From the NCBI GenBank assembly GCA_018062515.1, contig JAGOSC010000003.1, positions 14,495-78,494 on the forward strand: a DNA stretch of 64,000 bases, read 5' to 3'. Source of the stretch: Candidatus Omnitrophota bacterium (GTDB taxonomy: Bacteria > Omnitrophota > Gorgyraeia > Zapsychrales > Zapsychraceae). Shown here piece by piece: positions 1,949 to 48,900 of this stretch. The notes below the pieces were generated by a model that worked only from the letters and a program-made list of their open reading frames with translations, was not told where the DNA came from and made no database searches. How positions within the stretch are numbered: position 1 is the stretch's first letter; every line of letters begins with the position of its first letter. The position numbers and the translations under genes were made by a program.

Positions 1949-1960
1949 ATTTATCTTCTC

Positions 1961-2650: not shown

Positions 2651-2657
2651 AATAGTA

Positions 2658-3688: not shown

Positions 3689-3698
3689 TTCTGATCCT

Positions 3699-4487: not shown

Positions 4488-4493
4488 AGAATG

Positions 4494-7262: not shown

Positions 7263-7509
7263 ATAATGGGGAAAATTGATTGAAACCAGGTAAATTTAAA
7301 TAGAAATGGTACATAAAGTGTTACAGTTGTTATGTTTAACTCAAATTGAACTATCCGGATGGGTAGTTAAGCTTTTATTCTCATATATTTAATCTGCCCT
7401 GTCAAGGTATTTGTCCGCCCGAATCTTTTAGAAACGATATTTTTTGTGGACGGTTAAAATTTTATCTGTTATAAATAATAACAATGTATAACCGCAACCA
7501 GAGGTACAT

Positions 7510-7899: not shown

Positions 7900-7904
7900 C
7901 TTCT

Positions 7905-8306: not shown

Positions 8307-8307
8307 C

Positions 8308-10625: not shown

Positions 10626-10631
10626 ATTCTT

Positions 10632-12257: not shown

Positions 12258-12367
12258 CGCTCGTATTATAAGTCTTTTATGAAATTTTGGTTTAAAAAAT
12301 CAAAAGAAGGGAATTTATTAAATCAATATGAAGTTTGGAGTGGATATGGTCGAAGACCCAAGAAAGA

Positions 12368-12808: not shown

Positions 12809-12926
12809 ATTTTTCCTTTGTGAAACAAGTATAACACGGCCAAATACGCAAAAATAATTAAGATTAAAAATTGTTGGTTTAGTTTGAATCAACGCTGAAA
12901 TTAAGGAAAGGATTATCTGGAAATTG

Positions 12927-14012: not shown

Positions 14013-14430
14013 ACTCTACGCCTCAACTGTTTGATCTGATAATTTCAGATTTTCATCTACGGAATAATAATCACAAGAAATTAATACCAAAAAATGATCC
14101 ATCCACATGTTGACCTCCTAGCGACGGTTCATTCAACTGACCATCGCATTGCGTTGAAAGTATAACACGCCCTCTTTTGTTGACAAGATAGGCGCCTTCA
14201 CTTTCTTTCGACGAGGATCACTTTCAGTAGTTTTCCACAGTTTGGTCATTTTTGAAATTGTCGTAACTCCTTAATTTTGTGTTTATCTTGACTCGAATAA
14301 AAATAAAAACCCGATTAATGAGCATGTGCTTATAAATAAAAAATATTTTTATCCCCTCCTTTTTTTCCTCTCTTTGAAGACAAAGTCAAACTATTGCGTG
14401 TTCCATTGATTTATGATATAAAACCTTTCT

Positions 14431-30900: not shown

Positions 30901-33900
30901 CATTTTCTAGTATTTTCTTTCTGAAAGAACCCAAGTGTATTTCGTAAATTGAAATCGGATGATTGATCGATGTTTCAACTCTATTCTTCATCCATTCCCC
31001 ATCATTCCATGTGTACTTCTTAACATTCACGACTTCAGAGGCTGTGCTATATTCTTTTCCTTCGGTTGGATGTTCGTTGTACTGCGCGTATGGATCCGCT
31101 TTAGTTTGAACTTGACCATCTTTACCGACGACGTGGAATTTATAACGACTTCCTTCTTTCACGCCAGCGATATAAATCGACCATACGCCGCTATCTGTAT
31201 CCAATGTCATTTGATTTGATTCATGTTGGCCATTGTTAAAATCACCGATGACTGAAACGGCCTGAGCATTTGGCGCCCAGACGGCGAAATAAGTACCATA
31301 TACTTTTTGTTCAGTTTCGATTAGATGAGCGCCGAGCTTTTCATAAACGCGGCTATGAGTACCTTCGTGATTGAATAAAAGTTTATCGAATCCGCCGAAT
31401 TGTAAGCTATTGATTTTTTCTTGAACTAGACGAGCTTCTTCATCCAATTCGGTTTGATAGGTAAAGAATTGATCTTCACGTTGGCTGTTGAGTTTATGGG
31501 AAAGGTTGAATTCAGCGACGGCGCCGATTTCGTGGACCAAGCTGGCGGCGGCTTGAACGTCGGTTAAATATCCGCGTGTTACGTATTCAGGATGATTAGA
31601 TAGGAGTATATATTCTTCATTGTTATATTCATAAACGGTAGCTAAAAATCCTTTGAATGGACCGGCGCGGACATAACCGGCGCTAACCATCGCACTCAAT
31701 CGTTCAGCCATGGCTTTGTAACCGTGACTATATAAATAATCAAGCGCAATCGTAACGGCTGCATCATTGATCATTATCGTGGCCAAACGATTAATATCAT
31801 TCTTTCTCGTTCTTTCTCTTATTTCTCTGAGAATAGAAATAACTTTTAGCGTTAAGCCTTCTGCTTTTAATCTCCAATCCCAATTGTTCACCGTTGTGTT
31901 AGGCTTATTCATTCTGGCTTCTCCGCCCAAACCAAGCACATCTTGCATTTGAACAATCGCTGTATTGGCTTTTGATGACATCGCAATCTGAATTAAAGCC
32001 AAATGAATATTTTTCTCGTTAATTTCTTTATTCAAGAATTCTTCAATCTCAATTTTTTCTTTAGCCGTGGCATCCGCAATATACCAACCGACTGTCGTGT
32101 TATTATCATGAGTTCCGGGATAAACCACTGTATTTGAATCAACATCACCCAATCCGAACTGAAGAACTTTCATGCCAGGCAAGTTAAATTGTTTTAACAA
32201 GGCTGTTACTTTTGGCGTAATTTTATCTTCCGCGCCTAAATCCTCGGCGATAAACGGCATATCTGGGAAATCTTTTTTCAATTGATTAAACAAGTCGGCT
32301 TGTGGACCGTCGAGCCATTTTCCATTTTTGGCTGTCTCTTCACCAGCTGGAATGGCCCAGTAAGCCACAAACCCGCGGAAATGATCCAATCGAATAATGT
32401 CGAAGAAATTAAGTTGATGGCGTAAACGGGCAACCCACCAGGCATAATTATTGTTCTTAAGCACATCCCAACGATAAAGCGGATTACCCCAAATTTGTCC
32501 AGTTTTACTAAACGCATCAGGCGGAACTCCAGCTTTAAACTTGAGCTGATTGTTTTCAGCCAGATCAAAATACTCACGGTTAACCCAAACATCGGCGCTG
32601 TCATGGCTGACAAACATTGGGACATCTCCGATAAGACGGACATTATTTTTAGAAGCATAGCTCTTCAATTCCTTCATTTGTTTGTACAACATGAATTGTA
32701 CAAACATGACTTCTTGAATATTGTCTTTATGCTTTCGCTGATATTTCTTGATCGCCGTTTTATTTCTATTTCTTACATCTTCTTTCCAATCCCACCATGG
32801 TTTTAATTCATTATTTTCTTTGAGAGTTCTGAATAAAGCGTAATCTTGCAACCAATCATCATTATTGGCGATAAATGTTTTAAATTCTTTTTTGTTAGCC
32901 GTTGATTTGAAGCGTTGATAGGCAATTTTTAATAAACGCTTTTTGAATTGGACAACAGCTTCATAGTCGACGAAGTTTTCATCGCCGGATTTAAAATCAG
33001 ATATTTCTTCTTCCGTCAAGAATCCGTATTCAACCAATTTTTCTAAACTGATCAATAACGGATTTAAGGCAAAGGCTGAATCGCTCAAATACGGTGAATG
33101 TTTGGTATAACCATCCGTCGGTGATAATGGAAGCATTTGCCAAATATGTTGTTTGGCTTTGGCTAAAAGATCAATAAATAGATACGCAGCCGGTCCAAAA
33201 TCTCCAATACCATGACGTGATGGCAATGATGTCATGGACAACAATACGCCGCTTTCTTTCGCTTCCGTCACGCGCTTGACTTCTTTACGGACCGTCACTC
33301 GGGTCGGCATTTTCTCGCCGGGAACTGGACGGGCTGCATCTTTTCTGACTGGTTTTAACTCCAATTCCAAGACTAAGTAACCCTGCGGATTTAAGATCAC
33401 TGTTGAGTTCTCAGTGAATGGATATTGTTCTTCACTACTTTCAAGACTGGTCCACAGGCCATTATTCTTCTCAGAAATATTCCATTCAGCTGGATTTAAG
33501 TTGAGCGTGAATGTTTGTGTTTCTTCTGAACGATTCACAATAACTAATCCCTGTTTCTGTCCGAGTTTTCGCTGGAAGACAAGTATGCCGTCTGGCAACC
33601 GACCGGTTACAATTTTATTAATTTCACCATTGCTCCATAAATCTGTACGGGTTTTGGGCAACCAATAATCATAAAATCTTCTTACATCAGGATTATTGGT
33701 TTCATTTTCAGGATGTCGTGTTACATACGTAGCGGTTGGTTTTTCCTTTGATCGTCCGTCGCGTTGACCAGAATTGATCATCACCATACCAGGTATCGTC
33801 ATCATGATGATCGCAGCAGCCATTTGCTGTTCTGTCGTCAAGAAGCTGGCTATACGTCGAGAAGGATCGTCATGATTTTCTAAGAAATGAACCGTGCGAG

Positions 33901-36900
33901 ATAAATAATCTAAAGTCGTTCTATCACGATTGGTTAAATAATCCCACAATTCGTGTGTCGATTGTTGTCCGTCGACGAGAATGTCAAACACATGTTTGTC
34001 ATAGGTATAATCAGATCCCAATTCTTGTAAATATTTCTGCAAGAAATATGATTCAGAAACGAAAATAGCATTCTTATAACCTTTCTTTAGTTCATTTAAT
34101 AATTCCGCAAAAACTTCCGTAGAAACCAATTTTTTGCCGCCATTCGTATGCAAAAATCCGTTAAGTTTTTCTTTTAACAATAATTCGGCCATATCGATTC
34201 GGAATCCGCCGCCATTAGTTAAGCCAAGAATATGTTTCAAGACCTTAATCATGTGTTCTCTTAATTCCGGATTGGTCCAATCTAACTCAACGGTATCTAT
34301 CCACGGCGCGCTGTTTGGCCCTTCTTGTCCATGGAGAAACGCTCTTGGACCATGGATCGTATCAGCGATGAAATATCGATTGTTATATTTCATGGCATCT
34401 TTACGATTCTTCATATAATCCCCGAGTCTAAGTGCCGTCAACCCTAACGCTTTTAATTTTTCCAAGCTGATAGAAACGAACCACTCTGGATTGGAGTAGA
34501 TCCATGATGAATCGGCAGCCATATGATTTGGAACAAAGTCGACGATGACTTTCAAGCCAGCGGCATTGGCACGTTTCACTAATTTACGGAATGATTGTTC
34601 CGTTCCTAATTCTTCATTGATCGTGTAATCCTTAATGCTATAAGCTGAACCGATTCGTTTTTCATCCCACATTTTATTGAACTTGACCGTAAAGTCGCCG
34701 GTTTGCCAAATACCCATCATCCAAACGATGTTAAAGCCTTCTTTGCGTAAATTCTTCAACATCTTCGTCGAGACTTGATCGAAACGAAGGCCTTTTTCAC
34801 GGGCATTCCATAAATACATATTGGCGCCTTGGGTTTTGATTTCTTCATCAACATTGATTTTAGATTTCAAGATCGTTGCCAACGCTTCGTCATTCAGATT
34901 GACTGAATGGTCACCCTTCTTAATCGCTTCAACCTTGGCAAAAATTTTGCGATTATGTTCAGCGTGGATTTCAGCGGCGGCCATGATGGCTTCTTGTTTG
35001 GCCAATTCAACTAATTCTGAATTATCCATTTCCGGTGATTCCTTACGTACTCTTTCATAGGCCTTCCAGAATGTTTCTGCGAAAACCTCGTCAGTTTTGC
35101 GGGCTAATGCAAGAAGTTTTTTCATTTGACCGATTGTCGGCAGGACACGTTTATTTTGAATAGGATCGTAAATTCCAGATTTAAGATGGTCGTAAACGAA
35201 TAGATACTCTGATTTACGATCAAAGTTGGTGGAAATTAGACTGAATTTGCTAATTCTGTTTGACTCTTCAATATATGGACCAAATTCAGGCGTGGTTGCG
35301 TAGATTTTAATAATTTCTTCTTCTGTATAATTCTTATTCGGGTTCTTTTCTTTAAGAATATTTCTAATGAATTGCATCCATCTATGATCGAAAATCATCG
35401 CCGGCGGAGCGTTGGATGAACCATTATTTCTATTCTTATTTTCTTTAACCTGTTTACGATTTTCCGTCGCTGAGTGAAGTGCGGTGTACATCTTTTTACC
35501 CATCCAAACAAACGGGCCGGCAAAACCGACAAAAATTAAGTACCATTTATTCTTTCTTAATTGTTCATTCTTGATGAAGAAGTCTGGTTTGTTAACGGCT
35601 GACGTATAGAAAACACTGAAATATTGTGTTGAAATACCGTCGATGGCGACGGCAAATGAAGCTAAGACTGGATGCTGAACGATGAAGCTGCGTACGATTG
35701 AATGTATACGTGTCATCCAATAGGCTTCAAATTGTTTAGCACCGACTTTTCCAGCTTCTTCTTTCAATCTTTCGATGTTTCCACGGACAAATCTAACCAT
35801 ATTGGTATAACCAAATGTTCGTAATCGAACCATGGTCATGATACCAGCAATTCTTAAGGCGGTTGTCACCGCTTCTTCTATACCTGTTGATTGACCGCCA
35901 AATAAACTTGGAGCTAGATGACTTACCATCCATACTATGGCCGCAATTCCCGTCGTGGCGACGACTGCAAATTTAACATCCTTGATAAACTCCTCTTTAT
36001 CAAATGCTTTGGATAATTTAATTGTTCGGGCTTTATCCATCATTCCCATAAGATCCACTGCAACCATAAATGCGCTGACTGACAGAATTAAATATGTTAA
36101 ATCTAAATCTTTCGGCGCGATGACGGTGAAGTAAACCCAGCTGAACGCTCCCATGATCAAACCTAATGGGAAGGCCGCCACGATTTGTTTCTTGATAATG
36201 TCCTGACCGCCGATCCATTGACCAGAAAAGTCCGTGGCTGCCATGAACATACCGAAGATGATAATGTTAGCGACCGGTAAAGCGACGACGAGCGTCAATA
36301 ATCCGAAGAGATAACCGTAGGTTAACAAGGCTAAAGCTGAAATAGCAGAAACACTGACCAGGGCTTTGAATAATACATTCTTGGTCCGTTTGTTTTTCTG
36401 AACAGAATTATTCTTTTGATCGTCGACTCCATTGCTCGCGGCATTGTCCGTCAATAGTTTGGATTGTTCCGCTTTAGCCAACGCGTTATTTTTGTTTATT
36501 TGTTCTATTTCTTGAGCCGTAAACAATGGTTCAATGAACGGCTGGAATCGAGCAGGAACTGCCTTTGAACCATTCTTTAGAGAGCCAAACAAACTTCCCA
36601 AATATGTTTCAACATTAAAGACATCCATGGTTTGTTTTAATTTAATTCCTGATTGGCGAGAAAGAAGTTCCGCGCGGTCCTTTAATTGTTTCAGACTATC
36701 GTCAGTAACGATAAACATGCGGTGACGTCGGCCGCTCAAGATATTTTTGTTCAACTGATCCGCGCCATATACCTTGAATCTCTTTTTATCTTTATCATCT
36801 TTCTTCTTGGTCATCATCATGAAAGCGATATAAAGCGAATGCTTCCACAAAATTTCTTTAACCATCTTGTCAAAACCTCTTTTCTCAGCGCGTTTCTGCA

Positions 36901-39900
36901 ATTTACTGCTGTTGACCGAATACCCGTTAGAGATTCCTTTGTTTATTTCATGTTCTATCTTTGTTTTGTCTAATTCACTAAAGTTAAAATTCTCAATAAT
37001 TTTCTCGATATACTTGTTCAGCACTCTCAGTTTTTCTAAGTTAATAACATTATCTTCTTTAACCAAACTTAAAATCTGCATAATAATAGCCAAATGTCCG
37101 CCTACTTCTGGAAAAGTATTATAATAATAGGCCTTTAATGACATCGGAAGATTATGGCGGTATTGAAAATACAACATAATCGGCACACGAATAAGCAGCG
37201 CCACAGCCAGCGAGACAATTAAATATGAAATAATTGGCGCTAATAAAGTTAGCAGAACACGTTCCCCTACTAAATTATTTACCGTAAGATACGTTCCAAT
37301 CGACATACCGAAAACCTTTAAAAAGGTAGTGAATACCTTCAACCCTGTGAAAATTTTAAAGATTTTCCAATACTGACCAATTTGCTTACGTGACAATTCT
37401 TTTTTCTTAAGAGCCAAAACAATAACAAGACTAAGAAGTTTCCTTATAGAATTAATCTTCTTTATTGTGACCCGTGTGGTGCCTTTTAATATTGAGAATG
37501 AGCCAACCAAAACCAGCGCTAAGACTGCGGTCAACAGCAAGCCAGGTATAAATTCAGAGGTGATGCCGTCACCTTCAGTTTTTTCCGATTCCCCAATCGT
37601 TTCAACTTTAGTAATTGTTGATGACTCGGCATCACCTCTTCCTTCAGATTTCTTGGAGACAGCGTCGTTTTCTATTGTTTCCGATTCCCCAATCGTCACT
37701 TTAGTTTTTGCAAAAGAACGATCGCTGTCTCCAATATGGCGCGTATCTGAAATATTTTTCTGAGAGTCTACAGAGGTGATGCCGATAACTTTAGTTTTTC
37801 CGATTCCCCAACCGTTAATAACTTTAGTTTTATCTAAATCGACATCACCTCTGTAAATGAATGTGAAGACAGCATCAAGCTTTTCAGTTTTTTCCGATTC
37901 CCCAATCGTATTAACTTTAGTTTCTGTAAACGAACGGCTGACACTGCCTTCAATAGATTGTGTTGCTTGAGAATTTACAGGGATGATGCCGCCAATGTTT
38001 CCGATTCCCCAATCGTTAACTTTAGTTTTGTCTAATGAACGGGCATCATCCCTAGAGTTTGTGGAGACAGTGTCAGCGTTTTCAGTTTTTTCCGATTCCC
38101 CAATCGTATTAACTTTAGTTTCTGTAAATGAACCGCCGACGCTGTCTCCAATATTTATTGTGACGAAAAGCACAAATGTAATTAAAGTGGCTGCTGTAAA
38201 GCGTGCAGCTTTCTTAAATATTGCGCGGACAACGCCCATAACTGTTGTATTTCCGATTCCCCAATCGTTAATAACTTTAGTTTTTAAAGAACGATGGGCG
38301 TTGTCTGCGATATGTTTTATGTTTGAAATGTTTGTTGGTAGATATTGAGTGGATGTTTCGATCGTGCGGATGGTGAAGGCGTAAAACTTGAATACAACAC
38401 CATTTCGATCAACTAAAACGTTCAACCGGGCTAACCAGCTTAACAATTGGATCAGAACACCTTTACCCGCAATTTCTTTTTCTTTCAAATCATTTGAATT
38501 TTCAGCGGCGTAAACAGGTGTCGCGGCAAATGGATTCAATTTGCTTAATAATGTAAAAATGGTCGGCATCACTGGCAACACTGGTGTAGGCGCAGCTGGT
38601 AATGTCGTCGGAACGTTTACAGGAATCGTCGAATCTAAATGAGCCGGAATGTTTGTTTTGATCTTCTTAATTTCTTGTGCTTTATCTAAAATCTTATTTT
38701 CTTTAGTTTTATTAATTTGTTTTCGAAGTTTTACAACAGCAGCGATTGAAACAGCGACAATGATGAACGCTTTGATCACAATCGGGCTGAGGAAGAATGT
38801 CGCGACGGCCAGCAATATGATTGGACCGCGGTCATGTATTCCCAGCTCATCTTTAAAATAAACATCCCTGATCTCAACTATTTCAACTTCATCAATTTTC
38901 TCTAATGCCTTTCTTAAACCATTTTCCGCGTCTTCTATTGAAGTAGTTATCGGCATTTCCAGTCTCAATTCCAACAAGACTTCGTCATTATTATCTTCTC
39001 GAGCAATAACTGTATTATCGATATTGATTTTCAACTCACTTATGGTCGCTGATATTTTATTCATCAGTCCTTTGGCATCCGTTACCGTAATATAAATATC
39101 CCGTTTAATTGTTTGATCAGGCCGTATGGGAATATTTCTATCTTCTCTCAAATCTTGTTTTAACCGATTTATGCGTTTATCGAGATCGAGATCAGTAATC
39201 TCATTAGATATGATAATTTCAATTATTTTCTTTCCTTGTCTTTTTGACTTTTTAGTAGAAACATTATATATAAAGATATCGCCAAAAATACCCGTCGCTA
39301 ACTTTTGCATACCAGGCCGGTCTAACAAATCTATCTTGATAATTATTTTATGTTTCCCGGATTTGTTAACAGTAACGTCAATCTCATCCCAGGACTTCAA
39401 TTTTTCTGTAACGACCGCTGGCTTCAATTCACCGAGTGCGACGGCCTGGAACACGCCATCAGCGGTAAATTTAATACCCTTAATTTTTAATTCAGATAAT
39501 AAGTCTTGAGCTGAATAGTTCAGACGGTCGGTTATCACTTGATTATTTAAATCGATGCCCTCTTGAATTAATGCTTGTCTTCCGGTTTCATTGAGAATTT
39601 TAATAATCGTTTCCCGGATTATATTTCCGTTACCGTTACTGTTAAACGCGGCCAGTCCAACGATAACTTCTTTAATTTCATTGAGCTTCAAAGATTCTTT
39701 GACCTGTTCCAAAACTTGATTAGTTACGCTTGTTCCAAGACCTAATTTTTGCAATAATCCCAATTGCGGTAAGCCAATATTTTTAAGTTCTTGCATACCA
39801 AGCGCGTAATAATTTGATTTTGGATGAGCAATCTCCATAACCCTAATCTTTGTACGCCATGATTTTGCCGAATTCAATATAGCTCTTTGCATGGCCGGAT

Positions 39901-42900
39901 TATTACCCAGCTTAATTTTTGTTGAATTTGATCCTTGTCGAACCATATCTCCAGGTTGAAGTTCTGAATTTTCCCGGGCTTGGGCTGGATCCTGTGAGGC
40001 ATCATATGAATCTGATTTATCAACCCAAGAATTTGTTCTTGGTCTGTACGTTTGCACACCGATATAATCTTCCGTCAACCCTTTTTCGAATTGAGCGGAA
40101 CTTTGTTTGAAATTTAGCATAACAAAATCAGCCCCAGTTGCGTCTCTCGGTAGTTCGACGATATCAACAAACTTTTCACCGTCGATTTTTACCCATGTCT
40201 GAACGTGCATAATTCCTAAAGTTTTAAGTTTCTGATAAACAATATTAACCGACTCGTCTGCATCTTCACTTAAGTAAACTGATTCCTCCGGAGAAACTTT
40301 TTGCCCGGTTTTTCGCTGAATTGTATACAACCAATGAGAAAGTTTTCCGGCTTCATTCTTGACGCCAAAGCGCTGAGCATCAAATCTTTCTTTTGACTGA
40401 AGCATTATTTCATAAACTAATCCGTCTTTATAATTTCTAACCAAAATATGGACGTTATCATCTTCTTTGCGATCAGGGTTTGGATTATCTTTTGTTGAAG
40501 GCAATAGCTGCCCAAAGTTTTCCTCGATCTTACCGACTATATTCCAAATAGCTGCAGCCGCAGCCCGTCCTGTTTTATTCTTAACGATAAGAGTAATACC
40601 CAATAAGTCATTAAGTTCTGATACCTTTTTATATTTTGAACTGTCTTTTCCTTTTCGCACTTCATTAACTTTTTCATAAGCGCTGTGAGCTGTCTTAACT
40701 CGTTGATAGCTCTCAATAGAATTATCAAATACATCGTTTAAAACGCCTGTCAGTTCATTAGTAATTTCCTTCAAATAATTCTTCAATGCTTCGTAGGTGA
40801 ATTTACTATTTTTATATTGTCTAGGTGTCTGCGCTGTAACAATTTCTTCAATTGTTTCATGATATTTAACCGGATCTTTCAGAATAAAGATGCGTTCATG
40901 TAATACTCTCACTAAATTGGTACGATAAAATAGAGAAGCTAAAGTTACATAAATATCTTCAACTTCCCGAATGAAAGATTTTTCGGAATCCGTTAATTCA
41001 TGTTTTTGTGTTCCTTGTTGTTTGATCATTTCTTCGAGAAAAACAATATTCTCAGCAAACACCAAACGAAGAATATCCGCTTCAGCCACATCGTTTTTAT
41101 CGTCAATGCCGCCAGTCATTTCTACTATCATATCGACATAATCTTGAATTAAACTGTCTGTTATTCTTTGATCAACATCTTTTCGTTTTCTAATAACTTT
41201 ATCGGGATGATATTGGAGATTAAGGATGCGTTTGAAATTATAGACCATCTTCAAAGCCCACTCGACTGAACCATTCTTGATGCGCTTGCTGTTGCGTAAA
41301 ATATATTTGTTTAAATCTTTGTCACGATGATCGGCTTCAAAGAACAAGGCCGCGATAACTCCCTTAAACTTAGCTTCTTGACGGATAACAGCATCAACCA
41401 ACTTAAAGGCATATTGCATTTGTTCTTCGTTATATTTCGTCGAGATAATATCATAAGCTTCTTTAATAGCATCGGTGTGTTGTTTGAGGGTTTCTTCATC
41501 AACAGGATGTCGACGATATTGATTACGTTTACTATAAGCTTTCATTAATTCATCCATCTTTTCATCAAAGTTGTTATTATTTCTATTATTATCACCGCCG
41601 TTTATTAACACCGCCAATCCAGCGAATATCAAACCAGCTCCAAGAATATTATCGATCACATAAGCGACCGCCGCTGCCACAATCACGACTAGAAAGTCCC
41701 AAATCTTAGAGGTGCTGATATGGTTTATGAGTCCTTTTAACTTATTGTTTTTTGAAGGGCCGATTTTCATCAAGAATTGTCGGCTAAATTCATTGTTTTG
41801 GCTTTCAACCAGACGGATAATCCATTCTTTTTCATCATCGTATTTAAGTTTATTAAATATTTTAATAAGCGTATCTGTGTTATTTGTTGGGTTGCTCGCT
41901 TCTCTTATAACATCAATTCCAAAATATCTATCTTTTCCAAAGAGACGAGAAATATCCGCCCGAACTTGCGCATCTGCTCTTAACCACAATAAAAGCATGG
42001 CGCTCATCATCGTTCGTTTATGAGGAACTTTATGAATTATGTTCTTGTAATGATCAGATATGGTTAAAACCCAATCAATACTGGAATGATCACTCAATTC
42101 AACTGCTTTGGCGTAAACCTCCCAAATGCTATTCATTAATTCGCTAGCTTGTTCAAAAATACTTCTAATCGCTTCTTCTTTAATTTCCTCTTGAGTCGGA
42201 TTTTTATTTTTTCTCAAAAGTCTATCTTTTGCATTTTTAAGGAGGTCTTTGTCAGACGCTAATTCAAAAGCGTCTTCTATAATTATTTCTACCGCGTCTC
42301 TGGCGTTTTTCAAAGTTTTGATTTCTTTCGGCAATCGATAAAAATTATCCTTGTCGGCGATGGCGTTCAATAAGATTCTCTTAAATTCAAATCGGATATG
42401 TTTATATTCATTAGGAAGGCTGTCAATAAATGATTTGCCCGTGCTTGGCATTTTGGCGATGAAAAATTGGTATAATGTTCCGTCTTTAACATCCTTAATA
42501 GCTTGGCCTTCCATTATTCGTCCGAACGTATATCGTCCGACGAGTTCTTCATTGCTTGAATTTTTATCACTCATCAAATTATGAGCGCGGTCAGCCAACT
42601 TAACCGTCATTGCTATATAACCCGCGCGGATAATTCGGTCATAATAGCGAATGGTTAAACGTTTTTGATTCCAGTCCGCTAACTTCTTCGCCAATTCAAC
42701 CAACACGGCCGGAGCGCCCAATTTTTTCAATACTGAATATATTTTCAACGGAATTAAGTTTTCGTTTTTATTTCTGGTCAATACCTTGACCAATTTGATG
42801 ACCTCATCAATATCAAGATTTCTCGCTGGGTCGTTTTCATCTAATTTCTCGACCAATTCCTCTAATTGTTGACGAAGTCTCTTTTCGACTAAGGCCATCA

Positions 42901-45900
42901 TTTTCTTGGTCACGTGAATTTTTCGTCCGTCATTCAACCGGCGAATTTTCGCTGGCATTAATTTATTTTTGTCATTCGTGTAATAATCAATACTGTTTTC
43001 AATAACATCATGGAGAATGTCTACGGCCACAGCGACAGGGTTTGATATCAGGAACCAGTTAACTGACATACTAGCAACACTGTGAAGATGTGAAGTATAA
43101 TCCGTTCCGACTACATCTTTTCTGACATCGCCTTCGTGATGGTCTTTAACAATTTCGTTTAAACCTTCAACATATTTTCTAGTTAAACCGGTATTGAGCT
43201 GTCCTAGGCCAATAAAATTATCTGGATCAAACACGTGTACTCCATAAATCTTCTTAAAGATTTCTGAAAAAATATCTTCAGCGGAGCCGGCCTTAAATTG
43301 TTTATAGAATTGTCTTTCTACGGCCGGTTGTTGTGATGCGTCTTTAATATTTTCAACAACACTTGATTTAATCATAGGCTCATTACGTTTTGATAAAATT
43401 TTCCAAATGGCAAAACCAGCCGCGCCAACAGCCAACGCGCTAACAGCCACCCAGCCCCAAACTGGCATTGAAACCAATATAACTGGAGTGAAAGCGATCA
43501 ACGCGTCGACGACGATAATACTTGATCCAGCTTCATAAACATTTTTAATCGTTTTATTAAATACCGCGACAATGCCCTTACGACCAATGTTTTCGATTCC
43601 CCAATCGTTAACTTTAGTTACAAAAGAACGAAGGGCATTGTCGGCGGTAATATTTGAGATGTTGGATTGAAGATACTTTGAAGATTTGATCCTGGCAAAT
43701 GTAAGAACAGCGACGATGAATATCATCTTTATGACAATCGGGCTGATTATAAATACAACACCGGCTGTTAAAATTATTGCTCCTAAATCATTGGATTTAG
43801 TACCGCGCTCTTCAATTCTATTGAACAATATATTTTCTAAGAATGTTTTAGCTTTACCCGTTACGCTGGCAACTAATCGTGCCTTAGTGACTTTAGTTGT
43901 ATTGACATTTTGTATAAATCGATTAGCTAATATGTTTTGTTCTTTTTTGCTTAAACGGTTAAATAAACGATTTACCGCAGCCCAATGAGCGGCTGGTATA
44001 GCATTTATTCCTTGTTTTCCGTCGTGAACTGGCTGTATGTCGCCTTTAACGGTATATAAAGCTAAGCCGAACATTTCGCTGATTAAGGTTTCACTTAATT
44101 GTTTTGACGTTAAATCAGCCTTCATTGTATGGCTGATGGCTTTAATGTTTCCGGTGTTGATGGACGTTTCAAAGATTTGTTGAACAGTAGCTTTCGTGCG
44201 GAATTGTTGTAATGGAGTAGTGATAAAGACAAACGTATGGGCGTTTAGTTTTCTTTCAGCGGATAATATTTTGCGGTAATTTTCGAAATTTTGTTTTGTA
44301 TTGGTTGATTCATTCTCGAGGATAACATTTTTACCTTCGGTTAAAGTGATATTTTTGAATTCAACTTCAGTAGCGATCATTTGATTCATCACTTGCAAGA
44401 TGATTTGCGCTTCGCTGATCTTCACTTTTCCTGCGCTTAAAGCTGAACTTAATTCAGCCAAATCAGCCGCTGAACTGATAATCTTTCCGGCGACTTCGAC
44501 CGTGTAACCAGCTTCAAGGGCTTTGATGATCAACGGCATGGTTAATCGTCCATATCCGCCGAGAATAACAATACGTTTGGCGTTTGCTGCTTCATAAACT
44601 CTCAAGGTGTGTCGAATCATATCGATATCATCATTTCCAGCGAAAACAACATCGTCGACGGATTCTTGACTTAATTGTTCCATGGTCATATCAGATTGGC
44701 TGAGGCCTTCAGCCAATTGTTCTTTAGCTTCAGCGGCCAATTTGGCTTGACGTTGGAAGTACAAGCGGGCAGCTAACCAAGCGGCCAGTGATAAGGCAAC
44801 GATACCGGCGATGACAGTCGCATAAGCGCTGAACAATACAACAGCGACTATCCCCGGAGCCAAATCATTCATTTTCTTGGTATTCTTGGTATCTTTAACA
44901 TTCTTATGATTGGATACAGTCAATTTATTATTAAACAATCGTTTGGCTTCATTGAATAAATAATACAAGGATCCTAATATCCAGGTGATGAAAAAGACGC
45001 CAGTAATGGTAACCGGTAAGAAATAAATCAAAGCTGTTGCGGATTCTGTGACGGCCAACCCAATACCGAACCCTAACATAAGTAATTCATAGAATATAAG
45101 CGCTAAACCTTTAAAATATAATCCTCCCTTATTCTTTCTCAAATCTTTCTTAATGGCTTTTGTTAATTCTTGTTTTTCAGAATATATCGTGTTCTTATCA
45201 GCTTTAGCTATTTTAAAGAGTTGTTTGGTGATTGCACCTGGAACCCAGATAACATCTAACCAAGATCGGATAATTCCCGTTTTGGTCCATTGTGTATATC
45301 CTTTGAATCCTTTATAACCAGTTGTTCCGGGGAATATGCCCGGCATAGTCAGAATCGGCGCGAAGGCCCATAAGAAAATAGCGGCAATATAGAAGAATGA
45401 CCAAAGAATTGGTAAGGCTTGCCACAAGAAAACACCTAATGAAGATATGAAAATAAAGATAAGTGAGAAGTTTATCTGGAATTGGAATGAATCGGTCGCC
45501 TTAAGTTTATTACCAGCATTATCCATGAATCTATAAATGCGTTCGATGAACTCAAATCTAGCTATGTCCCATCCCTTCTCTGACTGATTAAACTTAGCCT
45601 TTCCGTGCAAACCTTTGAAAATACCAAGCGAATAATTGATGATGTAAGTGATGTAAACCATCATCAAGGCTGGGAACAATCCAAATAAACTTGAAATACT
45701 GCCTTGAATACCTTTGCGATTGAAATTCACATAATGTTTCACTAATGTGATGGCAAGCACGACTGCCGTGGCCAACCCAGTGAAAGGCATAAACGCCATA
45801 CCCAAAAAGGCCGTTAATCCTAAGAAATGCGCGATAAGTGAGGCCAAAATGGTCGTCGGAATAATACCTAAATAATTTACTAATCCGCGCATAATACCTT

Positions 45901-48900
45901 TTTCCTGTTGTGATTGAGCTATACCGCTCATGGTCACCATTTGTGAGAACCATACGCCGACGAAAGCCAAAAATACCGCGAATGGGAAGCCGGCAAAACC
46001 GCTGACACCCAAATAAAGGACGGTGAATATATATGACGGAACCGCTAACATAATGAACGGTTTCTTGGTAAAGAAGCTGATCGTGAAGAAGAGCATCATT
46101 TTTTGATACCAATTAAATTCTTTACTCTTCATTAAGCGGGTTAATTGACGTCCAAGACCTAATTCCGCCCCGCCAGCCGCAAATTTTTGGAACGGAACAG
46201 AACCGCCCGCGACGCTGACCTCGCGACCTTTACCTACCTGTAAATATTCACGGTGAGCGATGTAGTAACCTTTTCTCTTCAACCAAACTTGAATCGCTAA
46301 CATAATGTCTTCGGATACATAATCCGGAGGAAGCGTTCCGAATTCTTTTAATAATTCAGTTCTGAAAAATGCGCCGTGACCATAGAAACCTAATGCCGCA
46401 GACATGGCATTTACACGCATGACAAATGTTGTCCATGTGCGGTCACCGAAACCATGAACCTTACCAATCCAGTTGAACTTATCGGTGATGATATATTCAG
46501 CGACGTTAACCGCCATCAATTGCGGATCATCGTTGAATTCGGCCAAAAGGTTCGGGAATTTCAAGGCGTCTTCGAAGCGAATATCGTTATTAGCATCCAA
46601 GAACAAGTTGATGTCGCCGGTTGAATAGTTCATCATATTGTTTTGATTCATCGGTTTATAGTTTGGATAAATATTCCACTTTGCCGGTGATCCAAATTCT
46701 TTAAACGTTCCTTCTCTTGGATTAAATTTGTACATACTGTGTTCTTCGTCCGTCAAGAAAGCGACTTGAAGCATTGGATATTTACGTAATAAGAATTTAA
46801 GGTCTTCAATCTTACGGCGCTCTTCTTCCTTGTCATGTTTTTCTAATTTTTTGAAACTTTGATATGCCCAAACGATCTGTAATTTTTCAGCGACTTTAAG
46901 ATCGACAGCGGCTTCACTATGAGCAATTTCCGGGAATAATTGTTTAACGATAAAGCGGTAGGCTTCCCAGGCAGTAATGAGGCCCATAATGGTTCGGTAA
47001 AACGGATGGAAACGCATATTGACGAAGTCTTCCACCATTTCCGTAATCTCTTGGACGATTTCGCTATTCATATTTGTTGGGAACATAAACTCTTCTGTAC
47101 CTTCCAAAGCGCGCCATTCTGAAATGGTTGATTCGTCAATATTTTTGCCATATGTAGTAACTAAACGGCTCACAAAATTCTGCCATTCATCCGGCATTTC
47201 CTTAATAATGTGCGTTAACTTGGTTTTACCGACACCGCCCTCTTCTTTATTCAGGTCGGAGAAGTGAACCATAACAACTTCATCATTACCAACGGCGTTG
47301 ATCGTCAATTTCGGTAATCTTGTCCATGCCGGCATGGTTGGCATTCTCATCTTGACGACGCTAGTCATATAGAATTGTAAACGCTCTCTGACTTCTTCAT
47401 TTTTAAAGGTTCTGCTGAAATCATTAATAGCTACGCGTTCTTTTTCTTCTTGATCAATTAAATTCTTTTCGTATAAGTGTTTAGCAATTTCACTGCCTGT
47501 TTTCTTAGCGCCAAAATTTTTATCTAATTTGCTTACAAACGCGTCGGCATTTCTTCTTAACCCGCGGGCTGACGTAATAAAGCCTAATCCATCCATCCAT
47601 CCCTTTATTGAACCAGTGATCCATTGTGTAAAGTTAATAAAGGTAAATGTATCAAGAAAGTAGAACATGATGAATGTTGACCAAATAGCAATCGCTAGTC
47701 CCCAACCGGCAACCATACTTAAAGTATGATCTCCAAAAATATTAGACGTTATAATCTTTAAACTACTAAAGACGAAATCATTCCAAACATACTTAAATCC
47801 AAACGTAACGGCCCAGAAGAATGTACTAAAGGACAACTCTTTAAGAGAGCGTCTAACATAATTCTTTCTCAAATAACTGCTACTTATTCCTTTATCTATT
47901 CTGCTTGCCGTATTTACTATATTTCGGATGTTTTGAATCAAATTCTTAACAACCAAAAAGGCTATAAAAGCAATGGCCGCCCATGTCACAAATACCGGAA
48001 TCACCGCATAAATCGGTCCTAAGATAATGATCAATGTCGCCGGAATGGACAAAACAAATGGCCAGTTATTTTTACTATATTGAACAGCACCTCTAAATCC
48101 GGCAAAGTAAGCTGATGCCGCAATGATTATGCTTACCAGCATGATCGCAACTGAGGTAATAAGCATATTATCCGCCAAACCGTAAAACGCGATAACTCCA
48201 TTTAGGATTAAACCAATTACAACGCCGATGATAATATAAGTTTTGCGTGAGGCATAATTTCCGGATTTATCTTTGTATGTCTTGAATTTCTGAATTTTCT
48301 CTGCAATATTTTTAAAACTTGTACTATCTTTGTGTTTATACAACAATGTACCTAAACGGCCTAATCGTTTGAGTCCTTCCTCAAGTGGTAGTTGATTTCC
48401 TTCATTATCTCTTAGTTGCTTACTCAATAAATCTTTAACAAATTCTCGATTATTCAATTGATCAATCAAATCTTCCCAGGTAATTCTAGATTCTTTTTCC
48501 ATATCACCGACCGCTCCGCGATCATAGAATCTAGTTAAATTGAAGTACCATAGATCAATTTCCTTACCGAAGCGTTCTCCAACTCCTGCAGCCCATTTTT
48601 CTTTATCGTGGATATTACTGTCGATCAACTCTCGCAACATAATGGTATATCTTAATCGCGGCAGAATGGCGCGGATATGTGAACCGCGGGTAAACATAAG
48701 CACAAATAATACATACATTTCAAAATTGAATTTAATATTTTCGGGCAACTTTTGTCCGATTTGTATCATCCAATCATTGAATTCACTGAAATTATCGTCG
48801 AGGAATTTATCAGCGGATCGGTTGGTTCCATATAACATGTCAATGATTTTGTATAAGGCGATATCAACGGTTGGTTTATCAAAACCAAATTTTTCAGCGA

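What the first reader, a model, noticed from the sequence alone, without database searches (positions are those of the whole stretch)
38900..43150. Complete but expanded RelA/SpoT (RSH) architecture, HD-Synth-TGS-ACT-ACT, inside the giant gene
The HD hydrolase signatures (HLHSVA...NPVAVAVDILHDVIENS; TVKLADRAHNL) are followed by a synthetase-like domain, a TGS domain and two ACT-like domains, in the canonical long-RSH order. Here about 600 aa, including a predicted TM segment, are inserted between HD and Synth, and the whole unit is internal to a 15,000-aa membrane protein. Stringent-response enzymes are normally standalone cytoplasmic proteins. An RSH fused into a megaprotein is not something I know to be described.
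Basis: partly seen in the sequence, partly recalled or inferred. Interest (0 to 1): 0.85.

Follow-up and report, generated by a model that had tools for sequence, protein, structure and literature searches.

The report
Split RelA/SpoT module inside giant protein
A 15,000-residue, almost cysteine-free membrane protein, probably from an uncultured Omnitrophota bacterium, carries two very divergent stringent-response units: a Mesh1-like alarmone hydrolase and a complete RelA-like synthetase unit bracketed by membrane helices, an arrangement I could not find described.

Summary
On the minus strand, aa 6935-8375 of a ≥15,010-aa open frame contain real RelA/SpoT-superfamily domains. They are too divergent for Pfam thresholds but clear at profile level.

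It is not one RSH with a 600-aa insert, but two units:
- **Unit 1:** a Mesh1/small-alarmone-hydrolase-type HD domain (aa 6935-7240) with all metal ligands intact. The same domain occurs on its own in other large proteins.
- **Unit 2:** after a 185-aa linker and a 40-aa hydrophobic segment, a full RelA-like long RSH (aa 7470-8375). It has its own catalytically dead pseudo-HD, a synthetase domain, a TGS-like domain, a helical domain, a cysteine-less zinc-finger-equivalent region and two ACT folds.

The synthetase keeps the R-x-K/S/K/Asp/Glu core but has lost several canonical nucleotide-binding residues. The tRNA-sensing His and the zinc-finger cysteines are also missing.

Only three relatives turned up in billions of proteins. 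Two are from Omnitrophota, one of them inside another giant ORF.

Charge-bias and homology-anchored topology place unit 2 on the non-cytoplasmic side. This is unproven and puzzling. I could not test whether the genome has another rel/spoT gene.

Verdict: a new variant of a known kind.

The parts
18956..63988 (-). Giant open reading frame, at least 15,010 aa. There is no in-frame stop between 63988 and the window end at 64000, so the true start may lie outside the window.
   Evidence: Pfam domains lie in frame along its length. A collinear homologue exists in an Omnitrophota MAG giant ORF.
43685..43795 (-). TM helix aa 6732-6768 ('SPIVIKMIFIVAV'). It is a near-duplicate of the TM that closes the module and forms the upstream module boundary.
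43394..43531 (-). 46-aa hydrophobic stretch aa 6820-6865, probably a two-helix hairpin. Its C-terminal flank contains three Lys/Arg residues (net charge +1).
42269..43186 (-). Unit 1: Mesh1/small-alarmone-hydrolase-type HD domain, aa 6935-7240. Conserved residues are R6956, D6958, H6967, H6993-D6994, E6997 (the ED motif reads EN here), D7133 and N7137. A ~100-aa insert lies between the HD motif and the KLADRxHN helix.
   Evidence: BLASTP to E. coli SpoT residues 29-99 gives E=4e-4.
41714..42268 (-). Linker aa 7241-7425. It has no detectable homologue and its function is unknown.
   Evidence: No family hit, and outside all alignments.
41594..41713 (-). Hydrophobic segment aa 7426-7465 (40 aa; N-flank net charge +3, C-flank -3). 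It acts as the membrane anchor directly N-terminal to unit 2. The same position holds a TM in L003 and in P0007.
40829..41521 (-). Unit 2, pseudo-HD (aa ~7490-7720). It aligns over the full length of the Rel/SpoT hydrolase domain, but all catalytic residues are replaced. The C-terminal helices ('VEDIYVTLA') are conserved.
   Evidence: AlphaFold pLDDT is 70-90.
40304..40711 (-). Unit 2, synthetase (SYNTH) domain aa 7760-7895. Kept: R7763, K7765, S7769, K7773, D7794, H7847, E7860 and HWxY. Changed relative to E. coli RelA: G251->Q7762, R280->T7799, the Tyr of GYQSLH -> Asp (DDNVH), and the Q and R of EVQIRT -> M7862 and Q7864.
39914..40216 (-). Unit 2, TGS-like domain aa 7925-8025 (motif IVELPRDATGADF) with a ~30-aa insert. 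The position equivalent to RelA H432 is Phe.
39764..39913 (-). Unit 2, helical (AH) domain aa 8026-8075 (motif SWRTKIRV, matching ARxKIR).
39419..39763 (-). Unit 2, region aa 8076-8190 at the position of the zinc-finger domain. It has no cysteines and the structure model is low-confidence here.
39164..39418 (-). Unit 2, first ACT/RRM-like domain aa 8191-8275 (motif DLLDRPGMQK). It aligns with the terminal ACT/RRM of canonical long RSHs.
   Evidence: The equivalent stretches hit Pfam ACT_4 in P0007 (E=1.1e-5) and in L003. Model confidence is low.
38879..39121 (-). Unit 2, second and extra ACT domain aa 8290-8370, with a beta-alpha-beta-beta-alpha-beta fold.
   Evidence: Pfam ACT_4 22.8 bits, E=1.5e-4. 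pLDDT 60-80. Foldseek hit to 3ibw with TM-score 0.74-0.76.
38720..38827 (-). TM helix aa 8388-8423 ('SPIVIKAFIIVAV') followed by KLRKQINKTKENK. It forms the downstream module boundary.

Best explanation
The region encodes a split, highly derived RelA/SpoT system built into a giant multi-enzyme membrane protein. The host is very probably an Omnitrophota bacterium.

Unit 1 (aa 6935-7240) is a Mesh1/SAH-type Mn-dependent pyrophosphohydrolase with a complete set of metal ligands. I infer it removes the 3'-pyrophosphate from an alarmone-type nucleotide.

Unit 2 (aa 7470-8375) descends from a long RSH and is RelA-like. Its own HD is dead. Its synthetase domain keeps the phosphate-binding and Mg-binding core (R-x-K, S, K, Asp7794, Glu7860). 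Several base-contacting residues are replaced by motifs that are strongly conserved within this small family (NPDRKxDDNVH, GLVYEIxxQ). I infer it is still a pyrophosphokinase that transfers PPi from a nucleoside triphosphate to a 3'-OH acceptor. The donor or acceptor specificity has probably changed, and activation probably no longer follows the canonical deacyl-tRNA/ribosome route, because the H432 equivalent and the zinc-finger cysteines are gone. The two ACT domains are the likeliest regulatory ligand sensors.

Unit 2 is tethered by a hydrophobic segment at its N-terminus and closed by a TM helix at its C-terminus. Sequence rules place unit 1 on the cytoplasmic side and unit 2 on the other side of the membrane. 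The pair would then work like an exported alarmone synthetase with a cytoplasmic hydrolase as a safeguard. This sidedness is inferred, not shown.

Shown: homology, domain order, residue states, rarity, and embedding in the giant protein. Inferred: enzymatic activity, substrates and sidedness.
For: Homology:
- The HD profile hits MESH1 at E=1e-16 and Rel/SpoT HDs at 1e-12 to 1e-7.
- The core profile hits Rel and RelA structures at 2e-10 to 1e-7 and canonical long RSHs at 2e-5 against 5.8 billion sequences.
- hhalign gives 96.5% probability.
- Pfam RelA_SpoT is hit independently in four family members at 21.5-26 bits.
- The AlphaFold model has pLDDT 70-93 over pseudo-HD plus Synth. Its top Foldseek hits are RelA, Rel and SpoT.

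Two-unit anatomy:
- The HD family occurs alone in nine other proteins.
- The core with its own pseudo-HD is conserved at 37% identity (E=1e-157) in the giant ORF of MAG HK-STAS-OMNI-4, where no unit 1 was detected in the 22.5 kb held.

Functional constraint:
- Synth is the best-conserved part of the core, at 52-53% identity against 21-49% for the other parts.
- R, K, S, K, D and E are invariant across 28 sequences that include canonical RSHs.

Sidedness:
- The positive-inside pattern is self-consistent over five successive TM elements.
- In L003 the core follows a rhomboid 6-TM domain plus one extra TM.
- In P0007 it follows a PglC-type Bac_transf domain plus one TM.
- The same charge rule correctly places SLT and M23 outside and GT2 and a methyltransferase inside.
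- The whole protein is essentially cysteine-free, at 1 Cys in 15,010 aa against 1.26% in neighbouring proteins.
- Exported alarmone synthetases exist (PMC12691689).
Against: - No domain reaches a Pfam gathering threshold.
- The synthetase lacks several residues that matter in characterised enzymes. It lacks the Gly equivalent to RelA G251, whose G251E mutant is inactive (my own knowledge). It also lacks the Arg after the catalytic Asp and the Gln of the E-x-Q motif. That paper lists an Arg close to the catalytic Asp (R124) and a Gln two residues after the Glu (Q184) as ATP-binding; equating them with these two positions is my reading (PMC12691689). Finally, it lacks the guanine-stacking Tyr. 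It could therefore be inactive.
- The ED motif of unit 1 reads EN.
- An ATP-dependent enzyme, with TGS and ACT domains inherited from a ribosome-associated factor, has no obvious substrate supply outside the cytoplasm.
- In L003 the same predicted outside compartment also holds a sugar-phosphate enzyme domain (PF01182).
- Counting TM helices over long stretches fails: it gives the wrong side for the GT2 region.
- The 40-aa hydrophobic segment could be a hairpin rather than a single span (one search is uninformative, pLDDT ~40).
- The structure model was built on an alignment dominated by canonical RSHs, so its fold match is partly circular.
Confidence: 0.5

Rival explanations
1. Housekeeping reading, close to the first reader's. 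Both units face the producer's cytoplasm. Together they are the cell's own membrane-tethered stringent-response machinery: a RelA-like synthetase plus a separate SAH in place of a bifunctional Rel, possibly the only (p)ppGpp enzymes of a reduced genome.
For: - All characterised long RSHs act in the cytoplasm and need ATP, GTP or GDP (stated in PMC12691689).
- TGS, helical and ACT domains are retained in canonical order.
- A dead HD paired with a separate hydrolase mirrors the RelA/SpoT division of labour.
- The 40-aa hydrophobic segment falls between the single-TM class (33-37 aa) and the hairpin class (46-50 aa) of this protein. A hairpin would keep both units on one side.
- The 2026 Omnitrophota preprint reads many multi-enzyme giants as cytoplasm-facing.
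Against: - This topology would put the strongly positive KLRKQINKTKENK flank of TM 8388-8423 outside.
- It contradicts the rhomboid 6+1 topology in L003 and the Bac_transf-plus-one-TM topology in P0007.
- The tRNA-CCA-sensing His (RelA H432) and the zinc-finger cysteines are absent, and synthetase motifs are altered. Canonical ribosome-dependent activation is therefore unlikely.
- Unit 1 is not next to the core in L003.
- Only three relatives were found in 1.8-5.8 billion proteins. A housekeeping solution for the phylum should be commoner.
Confidence: 0.3
2. Pseudoenzyme reading. Unit 2 has lost catalysis altogether. It survives as a nucleotide- or ligand-binding regulatory or scaffolding module (pseudo-HD, pseudo-Synth, ACT sensors) that controls neighbouring enzyme modules of the giant protein.
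For: - The HD is certainly dead.
- Synth has lost the G251, R280 and Tyr319 equivalents and the Q and R of EVQIRT.
- A profile of the Synth-TGS region of the three closest sequences alone barely detects solved synthetases (E=0.74).
- The two ACT domains suggest ligand sensing.
Against: - The Mg-binding and phosphate-binding residues R, K, S, K, D and E are invariant across the family and canonical enzymes.
- Synth is the most conserved part of the unit.
- The replaced motifs are themselves nearly invariant between relatives that share 37-47% identity. That pattern fits a changed specificity better than decay.
Confidence: 0.15
3. Artefact reading. The giant frame, or the RSH part of it, is an assembly chimera or a run of separate genes joined by sequencing errors, so the 'fusion' is not real.
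For: The window probably comes from a metagenome assembly. The only other public copy of the neighbouring mutS lies on an 11-kb contig.
Against: - The 45 kb contains no stop codon at 39% GC.
- Pfam domains lie in one frame along the whole length.
- An independent MAG has a frame of at least 22.5 kb that is open over the whole locus, with the same order: DUF218, RSH core, repeats, multi-TM block.
- The protein-wide absence of cysteine spans all modules, while TGY codons are frequent in the other frames.
Confidence: 0.03

Closest known systems
E. coli RelA and other long RSH enzymes (Rel, SpoT; PDB 5iqr, 6s2t, 1vj7, 6yxa, 7qpr)
   Same: The collinear order is (pseudo-)HD, SYNTH, TGS, helical domain, ACT/RRM. 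The HD is catalytically dead, as in RelA. The R-x-K, S, K, Asp and Glu of the synthetase site are kept. These are the top sequence-profile and fold matches.
   Different: - Identity is about 17%, and no domain passes the Pfam threshold.
- The unit sits inside a protein of at least 15,010 aa, between membrane helices.
- There are no zinc-finger cysteines, and the RelA H432 equivalent is Phe.
- The G251, R280 and Tyr equivalents and the Q and R of EVQIRT are replaced.
- It has an extra second ACT domain, an 8-aa insert in SYNTH and a ~30-aa insert in TGS.
Mesh1/HDDC3 and bacterial small alarmone hydrolases (PDB 3nr1, 3nqw, 7qoc/7qoe, 4yf1)
   Same: These are the best profile matches of unit 1 (E=1e-16). 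The metal ligands His, His-Asp and Asp are conserved, as are the Arg of RKD, the Glu of ED and the Asn of HN.
   Different: It is not a small standalone protein. It carries a ~70-100-aa insert between the HD motif and the KLADRxHN helix. The ED motif reads EN in this copy. Its family is found fused to methyltransferase, metallophosphoesterase, LOG-like and other domains.
Exported alarmone synthetases and toxic SAS (Tas1/Apk1, SaEAS, FaRel, with SAH antidotes; PMC12691689, PMC7229694)
   Same: They set a precedent for RSH synthetases acting outside the producer's cytoplasm, and for pairing a synthetase with an alarmone hydrolase as self-protection. Unit 2 is predicted on the trans side and unit 1 on the cis side.
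   Different: Those are single SYNTH domains with signal peptides or secretion-system adaptor domains, and with canonical ATP-binding residues. Here the synthetase is a whole long-RSH derivative anchored in a giant membrane protein. It lacks two of those residues, as I map them onto this sequence. There was no PADLOC hit. Export has not been shown.
Omnitrophota giant 'multi-enzyme metabolic cluster' proteins (bioRxiv 10.64898/2026.06.07.730766; 10.1101/2023.11.21.568195)
   Same: It is a polypeptide of more than 10,000 aa with many TM helices, tiled with unrelated enzyme domains: SLT, M23, GT2/glucan synthase, DUF218, amylase, GH77 and GlgB. Type II/IV-pilus-like genes lie nearby. Its closest relatives are in Omnitrophota MAGs.
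   Different: Neither paper mentions RelA/SpoT, ppGpp, TGS or ACT domains, and neither mentions cysteine depletion.

Membership tests
RSH superfamily, synthetase domain (Pfam PF04607 RelA_SpoT) | Score at or above the curated Pfam threshold | tested here: inconclusive
   26.0 bits against a cut-off of 27, E=1.2e-5, profile positions 1-103 of 113, when aa 7730-7925 is scanned alone. No hit when longer pieces are scanned. Relatives score 23.5, 21.5 and 22.4 bits.
RSH superfamily, synthetase domain (Pfam PF04607 RelA_SpoT) | Profile-level homology to experimentally solved RSH synthetases | tested here: met
   Profile A1 against PDB: Rel of T. thermophilus 2e-10, E. coli RelA 3.7e-9, RelSeq 1.2e-7. 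hhalign 96.5%, E=8.5e-10. Foldseek E=1e-14 to RelA.
RSH superfamily, synthetase domain (Pfam PF04607 RelA_SpoT) | Catalytic and substrate-binding residues: R-x-K...S...K, Asp of DxxxxR, GYxSLH, ExQxR, HWxYK | tested here: inconclusive
   Kept: R7763, K7765, S7769, K7773, D7794, H7847, E7860 and HWxY. Lost: the G251 equivalent (Q7762), the Arg after Asp (T7799), the Tyr (now Asp), and the Q and R of ExQxR (M7862, Q7864).
RSH superfamily, synthetase domain (Pfam PF04607 RelA_SpoT) | Pyrophosphate transfer from ATP to a nucleotide 3'-OH | not testable with these tools
   Needs an enzyme assay.
Long RSH (Rel/RelA/SpoT) | Collinear HD - SYNTH - TGS - helical - ZFD - ACT/RRM on one chain | tested here: met
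   MAFFT alignment with SpoT and three canonical RSHs is collinear end to end. hhalign covers HD C-terminal helices, SYNTH, TGS and the helical domain. Full-length RelA, Rel and SpoT are the top fold hits.
Long RSH (Rel/RelA/SpoT) | TGS domain detectable, with the CCA-sensing His (RelA H432) | tested here: not met
   No Pfam TGS hit at E<=10. Only the ELPxxATxxDF motif aligns (hhalign on TGS alone: 50% probability, E=1.6e-4, 15 columns). The H432 position is Phe here and Val in L003 and P0001. The role of H432 is from my own knowledge.
Long RSH (Rel/RelA/SpoT) | Zinc-finger (CC) domain with conserved cysteines | tested here: not met
   No cysteine anywhere in aa 7470-8375. The canonical CCxPxPGD...C columns are filled by non-Cys residues.
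Long RSH (Rel/RelA/SpoT) | Hydrolase-competent HD in the same unit (Rel/SpoT) versus dead HD (RelA) | tested here: not met
   The unit's own HD has FE in place of HD, DH in place of ED, and VFAENIVF in place of KLADRxHN. It is therefore RelA-like, not Rel- or SpoT-like.
Long RSH (Rel/RelA/SpoT) | Free-standing soluble protein of ~700-800 aa | tested here: not met
   The unit is internal to a frame of at least 15,010 aa and flanked by hydrophobic segments at aa 7426-7465 and 8388-8423.
Small alarmone hydrolase / Mesh1 (Pfam PF13328 HD_4) | Score at or above the Pfam HD_4 threshold | tested here: not met
   No HD_4 hit for aa 6930-7165 at E<=10. The relatives P0002 and P0011 score 21.6 and 21.3 bits against a cut-off of 27.2.
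Small alarmone hydrolase / Mesh1 (Pfam PF13328 HD_4) | Profile-level homology to solved Mesh1, SAH or Rel hydrolase domains | tested here: met
   Profile A2 against PDB: 3nr1 1e-16, 5vxa 7e-16, 3nqw 8.5e-16, Rel/RelA HDs 1.8e-12 to 1.4e-7, SAHs 7qoe, 7qoc and 4yf1.
Small alarmone hydrolase / Mesh1 (Pfam PF13328 HD_4) | Metal ligands (His, His-Asp, Asp) and the R / ED / N catalytic set | tested here: met
   H6967, H6993-D6994, D7133, R6956, E6997 and N7137 are present and invariant or nearly so in the 10-member family. The Asp of ED is Asn in 3 of 10 members, including this one.
Exported alarmone synthetase / toxSAS | Single SYNTH domain with a signal peptide or a secretion-system adaptor domain | tested here: not met
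   The architecture is a long-RSH derivative inside a membrane protein. No PADLOC model matched.
Exported alarmone synthetase / toxSAS | Location outside the producer's cytoplasm | tested here: inconclusive
   The positive-inside rule, rhomboid 6+1 topology in L003, and Bac_transf plus one TM in P0007 all predict the trans side. No dedicated topology predictor or experiment was available.
Omnitrophota giant multi-enzyme membrane proteins | ORF of more than 10,000 aa with many TM helices, several unrelated enzyme domains, and relatives in Omnitrophota | tested here: met
   At least 15,010 aa with about 35 hydrophobic segments. Pfam hits to SLT, M23, Glucan_synthase/GT2, DUF218, alpha-amylase, GH77 (541 bits) and CBM48/GlgB. 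Relatives are P0001 (Ca. Omnitrophica) and L003 (Ca. Omnitrophota HK-STAS-OMNI-4). The taxon of the window itself is inferred, not shown.

The most novel reading that the evidence does not exclude
The RelA-like unit is a membrane-bracketed loop displayed on the non-cytoplasmic face of a cysteine-free giant surface protein of an episymbiotic or predatory Omnitrophota cell. It acts on, or inside, the partner cell as a long-RSH-derived alarmone (or tRNA) pyrophosphokinase effector. The Mesh1-like hydrolase on the cytoplasmic face protects the producer. This would be the first exported synthetase derived from a whole long RSH. It would also be direct evidence that giant Omnitrophota proteins carry 'cytoplasmic-type' enzymes to the outside.
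Probability: 0.3. Interest if true: 0.85.

Novelty: new variant of a known kind. Interest (0 to 1): 0.62.

Why it matters
RSH enzymes are among the best-studied bacterial regulators, and their classification has no membrane-embedded or megaprotein-borne long RSH. This module shows a complete long RSH being recruited as one cassette of a giant multi-enzyme membrane protein. It has been stripped of its hydrolase, its tRNA-sensing histidine and its zinc finger, and paired with a separate Mesh1-type hydrolase.

If the synthetase is active, it defines a new RSH subgroup with altered nucleotide-binding motifs, and so possibly a new product or target.

If the predicted outward orientation is right, it links alarmone chemistry to the host-interaction machinery of uncultured ultra-small bacteria. 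It would also give a concrete assay for an open question: which side of the membrane do the 'metabolic' modules of Omnitrophota giant proteins work on?

If both units are cytoplasmic and no other rel gene exists, it shows how a reduced genome can fold an essential regulator into a megaprotein.

Tried and rejected
- **Pfam and NCBIfam on the whole 1,667-aa region:** only weak ACT hits. The RelA_SpoT hit appears only when the segment is scanned alone.
- **phmmer against PDB:** the region gave only MESH1 at E~0.3. The synthetase segment alone gave a spurious L27 match.
- **Word-index homologue search with the single sequence:** nothing.
- **Genome-contig scan with the single sequence:** nothing.
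- **Metagenome-contig scans:** two scans, nothing.
- **Viral-contig scans:** two scans, nothing.
- **PADLOC:** nothing.
- **Single-sequence AlphaFold:** useless, pLDDT 35.
- **Profile of the Synth-TGS region of the three closest sequences against PDB:** only E=0.74.
- **Counting TM helices across long stretches to fix the side of each module:** rejected, because it puts the GT2 catalytic domain on the wrong side. Only local flank charges and homology-anchored topologies were used.
- **The reading that the 600 aa is an insertion inside one HD fold:** considered (note) and rejected once the core's own full pseudo-HD aligned.
- **Is there another rel/spoT in the genome?** The rest of the window has none by inspection. 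The source genome could not be retrieved: the neighbouring mutS is found only on an 11-kb contig. The supplement of the 2026 preprint has no relA/spoT entries.
- **Artefact or chimera:** rejected.

Full report
**Observation.** The window holds a single minus-strand open frame, 18956-63988, of 15,010 codons. The 12 bases between it and the window end contain no stop, so the gene may be longer. The finding's coordinates correspond to aa 6947-8363. The quoted strings are there: HLHSVA at 6967, DILHDVIENS at 6990 and VKLADRAHNL at 7129.

Pfam and NCBIfam on the whole region report only sub-threshold ACT hits. When the pieces are scanned separately, the synthetase-like piece hits RelA_SpoT at 26.0 bits (cut-off 27, E=1.2e-5, 103 of 113 profile positions). 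The last ACT scores 22.8 bits. HD_4 and TGS are not reported at all. By curated thresholds nothing passes, so the question was whether the resemblance is real remote homology.

**Relatives are extremely few.**
- The word-index search found nothing.
- An exhaustive phmmer of aa 6940-8139 against 1.84 billion representatives gave 11 hits.
- P0001 is a 502-aa fragment, 47% identical over aa 7546-8074. Its source names it a hypothetical protein of a Candidatus Omnitrophica MAG.
- P0007 is a 3,055-aa protein with Bac_transf, a RelA_SpoT-like stretch, two ACTs and a GlnD-type domain.
- Nine further proteins share only the first HD domain.
- A pattern scan of 185,579 species genomes found one more relative, L003, on a 2.0-Mb contig of Candidatus Omnitrophota isolate HK-STAS-OMNI-4.
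- All 22.5 kb of that locus are one open frame. It matches aa 7470-8346 at 37% identity (E=1e-157). It also matches the DUF218 block upstream and a multi-TM block downstream, in the same order.
- JGI metagenome contigs and IMG/VR gave nothing.
- The window's organism is therefore inferred to be an Omnitrophota bacterium. The gene belongs to the 'multi-enzyme' class of giant Omnitrophota proteins described in a 2026 preprint.
- Other Pfam domains in the same frame are SLT, M23, glucan-synthase/GT2, DUF218, alpha-amylase, GH77 (541 bits) and CBM48/GlgB.

**Homology is real.**
- A profile of this sequence, P0001 and P0007 hits solved long RSH N-terminal regions: T. thermophilus Rel 2e-10, E. coli RelA 3.7e-9, RelSeq 1.2e-7. 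The alignment runs from the KLADRLHN helix of the hydrolase domain to EVQIRT of the synthetase.
- The same profile finds canonical long RSHs at 2e-5 in a 5.8-billion-sequence database.
- hhalign of this sequence, L003 and P0001 against five canonical RSHs gives 96.5% probability (E=8.5e-10) over 348 collinear columns, through TGS and the helical domain.
- An AlphaFold model built on a 28-row alignment has pLDDT 70-93 over pseudo-HD plus synthetase, 55-80 over TGS, and 60-80 over the last ACT.
- Its best Foldseek matches are ribosome-bound RelA, B. subtilis Rel, full-length SpoT, and the ACT domain of a GTP pyrophosphokinase.
- That alignment was mostly canonical RSHs, so the fold match is corroboration, not independent proof.
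- For the first HD domain, a 10-member profile hits human MESH1 at 1e-16. It then hits fly Mesh1, Rel/RelA/SpoT hydrolase domains and bacterial small alarmone hydrolases.

**Anatomy: two units, not one.** The HD family of aa 6935-7240 is self-contained. It has its own C-terminal part and occurs in nine other proteins without any synthetase. It is undetectable in the 22.5 kb of L003, even with an HMM.

The conserved core starts right after the hydrophobic segment at aa 7470. When aligned with SpoT and canonical RSHs, it begins with a full-length hydrolase-domain homologue whose catalytic residues are all replaced. AALLHDVIED became AALFFEADHR, and KLADRTHN became VFAENIVF. The C-terminal helices (ETLEIYAPLA became VEDIYVTLA) are well conserved.

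The order is:
1. Mesh1-like HD (6935-7240)
2. Linker with no detectable homologue (7241-7425)
3. 40-aa hydrophobic segment (7426-7465)
4. Pseudo-HD (~7490-7720)
5. SYNTH (7760-7895)
6. TGS-like domain (7925-8025)
7. Helical domain (8026-8075)
8. A cysteine-free region where the zinc finger should be (8076-8190)
9. ACT/RRM-like domain (8191-8275)
10. A second ACT (8290-8370)

The module is bracketed by two near-identical TM helices, SPIVIKMIFIVAV at 6744 and SPIVIKAFIIVAV at 8403.

**Residue states.**
- Unit 1 keeps R6956, H6967, H6993-D6994, E6997, D7133 and N7137. The Asp of ED is Asn, as in 3 of 10 family members.
- In SYNTH, R7763, K7765, S7769, K7773, D7794 (RelA D275) and E7860 (RelA E335) are invariant across 28 aligned sequences that include canonical enzymes.
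- The RelA G251 equivalent is Gln (Gly in L003 and P0001), and the R280 equivalent is Thr.
- GYQSLH is DDNVH, and EVQIRT is EIMLQS.
- That paper lists an Arg close to the catalytic Asp and a Gln two residues after the Glu as ATP-binding; equating them with the R280 and EVQIRT-Gln positions here is my reading (PMC12691689). Canonical ATP binding is therefore doubtful.
- On the other hand, SYNTH is the most conserved part of the core, at 52-53% identity against 21-49% elsewhere. The replacing motifs NPDRKxDDNVH and GLVYEI are invariant among the three close relatives. This fits altered specificity better than decay.
- In TGS, the position of RelA H432 is Phe here and Val in the relatives. H432 is needed for activation by deacylated tRNA (my own knowledge).
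- Together with the missing zinc-finger cysteines, this argues against the canonical starved-ribosome switch.

**Sidedness.** Flank charges give a self-consistent path over successive membrane elements:
- DUF218 outside.
- TM 6732-6768 crosses from outside to inside.
- A hairpin at 6820-6865.
- Unit 1 inside.
- Segment 7426-7465 (N flank +3, C flank -3) crosses from inside to outside.
- Unit 2 outside.
- TM 8388-8423 (C flank KLRKQINKTKENK) crosses from outside to inside.

The same rule places the SLT/M23 region outside, and the GT2 and methyltransferase domains inside, as their biochemistry requires.

Two homology-anchored cases agree:
- In L003 the core follows a Pfam Rhomboid domain (2e-19). 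That domain has the HxxxxHxxxN, GASG and His motifs in the expected helices. A Lys/Arg-rich loop and one extra TM follow, which is the 6+1 arrangement that puts the C-terminal side outside.
- In P0007 the core follows a PglC-type Bac_transf domain and one TM, and is closed by another TM.

Against this:
- RSH enzymes need ATP.
- The 40-aa segment could be a hairpin.
- TM parity counting fails elsewhere in the protein.
- L003 would then also expose a sugar-phosphate enzyme domain.

The 2026 preprint meets the same puzzle for its 147,155-aa protein. Exported alarmone synthetases are now known, but they are single SYNTH domains (PMC12691689). I put the outward orientation at roughly 40-50%, and the full effector reading at about 30%.

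**Cysteine.** The giant protein has one Cys in 15,010 residues, against 1.26% in the 18 neighbouring ORFs. All other residues lie within 0.8-1.26-fold of the neighbours. TGY codons are common in the other two frames.

L003 has 0 Cys in 7,521 aa, P0001 0 in 502, P0007 1 in 3,055, and P0009 0 in 2,222. Neither giant-gene paper mentions this. Cysteine exclusion is typical of proteins exported unfolded or exposed outside (my own knowledge). It also explains the loss of the zinc finger. It covers modules on both predicted sides, so it does not settle the orientation of unit 2 on its own.

**Comparison and verdict.** Unit 2 works like, and descends from, a RelA-type long RSH. It fails several defining features: curated thresholds, the zinc finger, the TGS His, several SYNTH residues, and being free-standing and soluble. 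Unit 1 is a Mesh1/SAH-type hydrolase by profile and residues, but it is not a small standalone protein.

I found no paper describing an RSH in Omnitrophota, in giant proteins, or membrane-anchored in bacteria. I rate it a new variant of a known kind, of real interest to RSH and Omnitrophota specialists. Its activity, substrates and orientation remain unproven. Whether another rel/spoT gene exists in the genome is still open.

Noticed in passing
window 18956-63988 (-); the single Cys is at aa 11854 (28427-28429); L003 1-22565: The giant protein is almost free of cysteine: 1 in 15,010 aa, against 1.26% in the 18 neighbouring ORFs. All other residues are at normal levels, and TGY codons are frequent in the other frames. 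The relatives are the same (L003 0/7,521, P0001 0/502, P0007 1/3,055, P0009 0/2,222). Neither giant-gene paper mentions this.
   Followed up: partly
window 43685-43795 and 38720-38827 (-); also aa 1877-1916, 6733-6815, 8385-8437, 8522-8830, 12161-12249: Repeated boundary elements occur between enzyme modules. They comprise near-identical TM helices ('SPIVIK.FIIVAV') and a recurring 'TKVNDWGI / TKVN.IGESE' motif block. L003 has 135-aa tandem copies of the related 'TKVAIGESE...' unit (L003p 5020-5770).
   Followed up: partly
window 58193-58276 (-), aa 1905-1932; L003p aa 2154-2179 and 3010-3037: There are internal signal-peptide-like segments ending in AxA, followed by Q/D (for example FKKTLKFAAVLAAVTMLPGMAMA|QD). 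They are conserved in type between the two giant ORFs. They may be signal-peptidase cleavage sites that cut the polyprotein into pieces.
   Followed up: no
L003 9365-9760 approx. (L003p aa 3121-3253): A rhomboid intramembrane protease domain (Pfam 2e-19; catalytic GASG Ser and TM6 His present) is built into the HK-STAS-OMNI-4 giant ORF immediately upstream of its RSH core. One extra TM lies between them.
   Followed up: partly
window 29498-34759 (-), aa 9744-11497: A run of glycogen-type enzymes sits in the same frame: alpha-amylase, a full GH77 4-alpha-glucanotransferase (541 bits), and CBM48 plus branching enzyme. Flank charges of the bounding TMs put this block on the non-cytoplasmic side too.
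   Followed up: partly
window 63989-64000: There is no in-frame stop between the listed TTG start (63988) and the window end. The giant gene probably starts outside the window, so 15,010 aa is a minimum.
   Followed up: yes
window 20042-22024 (-), aa 13989-14649; and 59126-60589 (-), aa 1134-1621: Internal protein repeats occur near both ends of the giant protein. Near the C-terminus there are about three ~140-aa copies at 49-71% identity. At aa 1134-1621 there are copies at 30-53% identity that contain the hydrophobic 'LGFGLVLVAVKA' motif.
   Followed up: no
P0007 (3,055 aa, ENA contig of 10.7 kb): This distant relative carries the same TM-bracketed pseudo-HD/Synth/TGS/ACT-ACT core, fused to a PglC-type sugar-phosphate transferase and a GlnD-type uridylyltransferase region. 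Its synthetase keeps the canonical ExQxR (EFQLRS) that the window's copy has lost.
   Followed up: partly
P0002-P0011 (hits): The Mesh1-like HD subfamily, marked by a 'LHDV.E[DN]SI.YY' motif and a 70-100-aa insert, occurs in other large proteins. There it is joined to methyltransferase, calcineurin-like phosphoesterase, LOG/Lysine_decarbox and GNAT-like domains. Several of these proteins end in a 'GGID(L/F)N' motif.
   Followed up: partly
window 215-18802: The neighbourhood is ordinary chromosome. By eye it encodes rdgB, RNase PH, queF/E/C/D, murI, an amidase, a secretin-like protein, a response regulator, RsmB/F-type methyltransferase, a TPR glycosyltransferase, a prepilin-type protein, and then mutS-mutL converging on the giant gene. 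No rel/spoT gene is present in the window outside the giant ORF.
   Followed up: partly
window 45594-46112 (-): A 172-aa ORF listed inside the giant gene lies in another frame and is most likely spurious.
   Followed up: no
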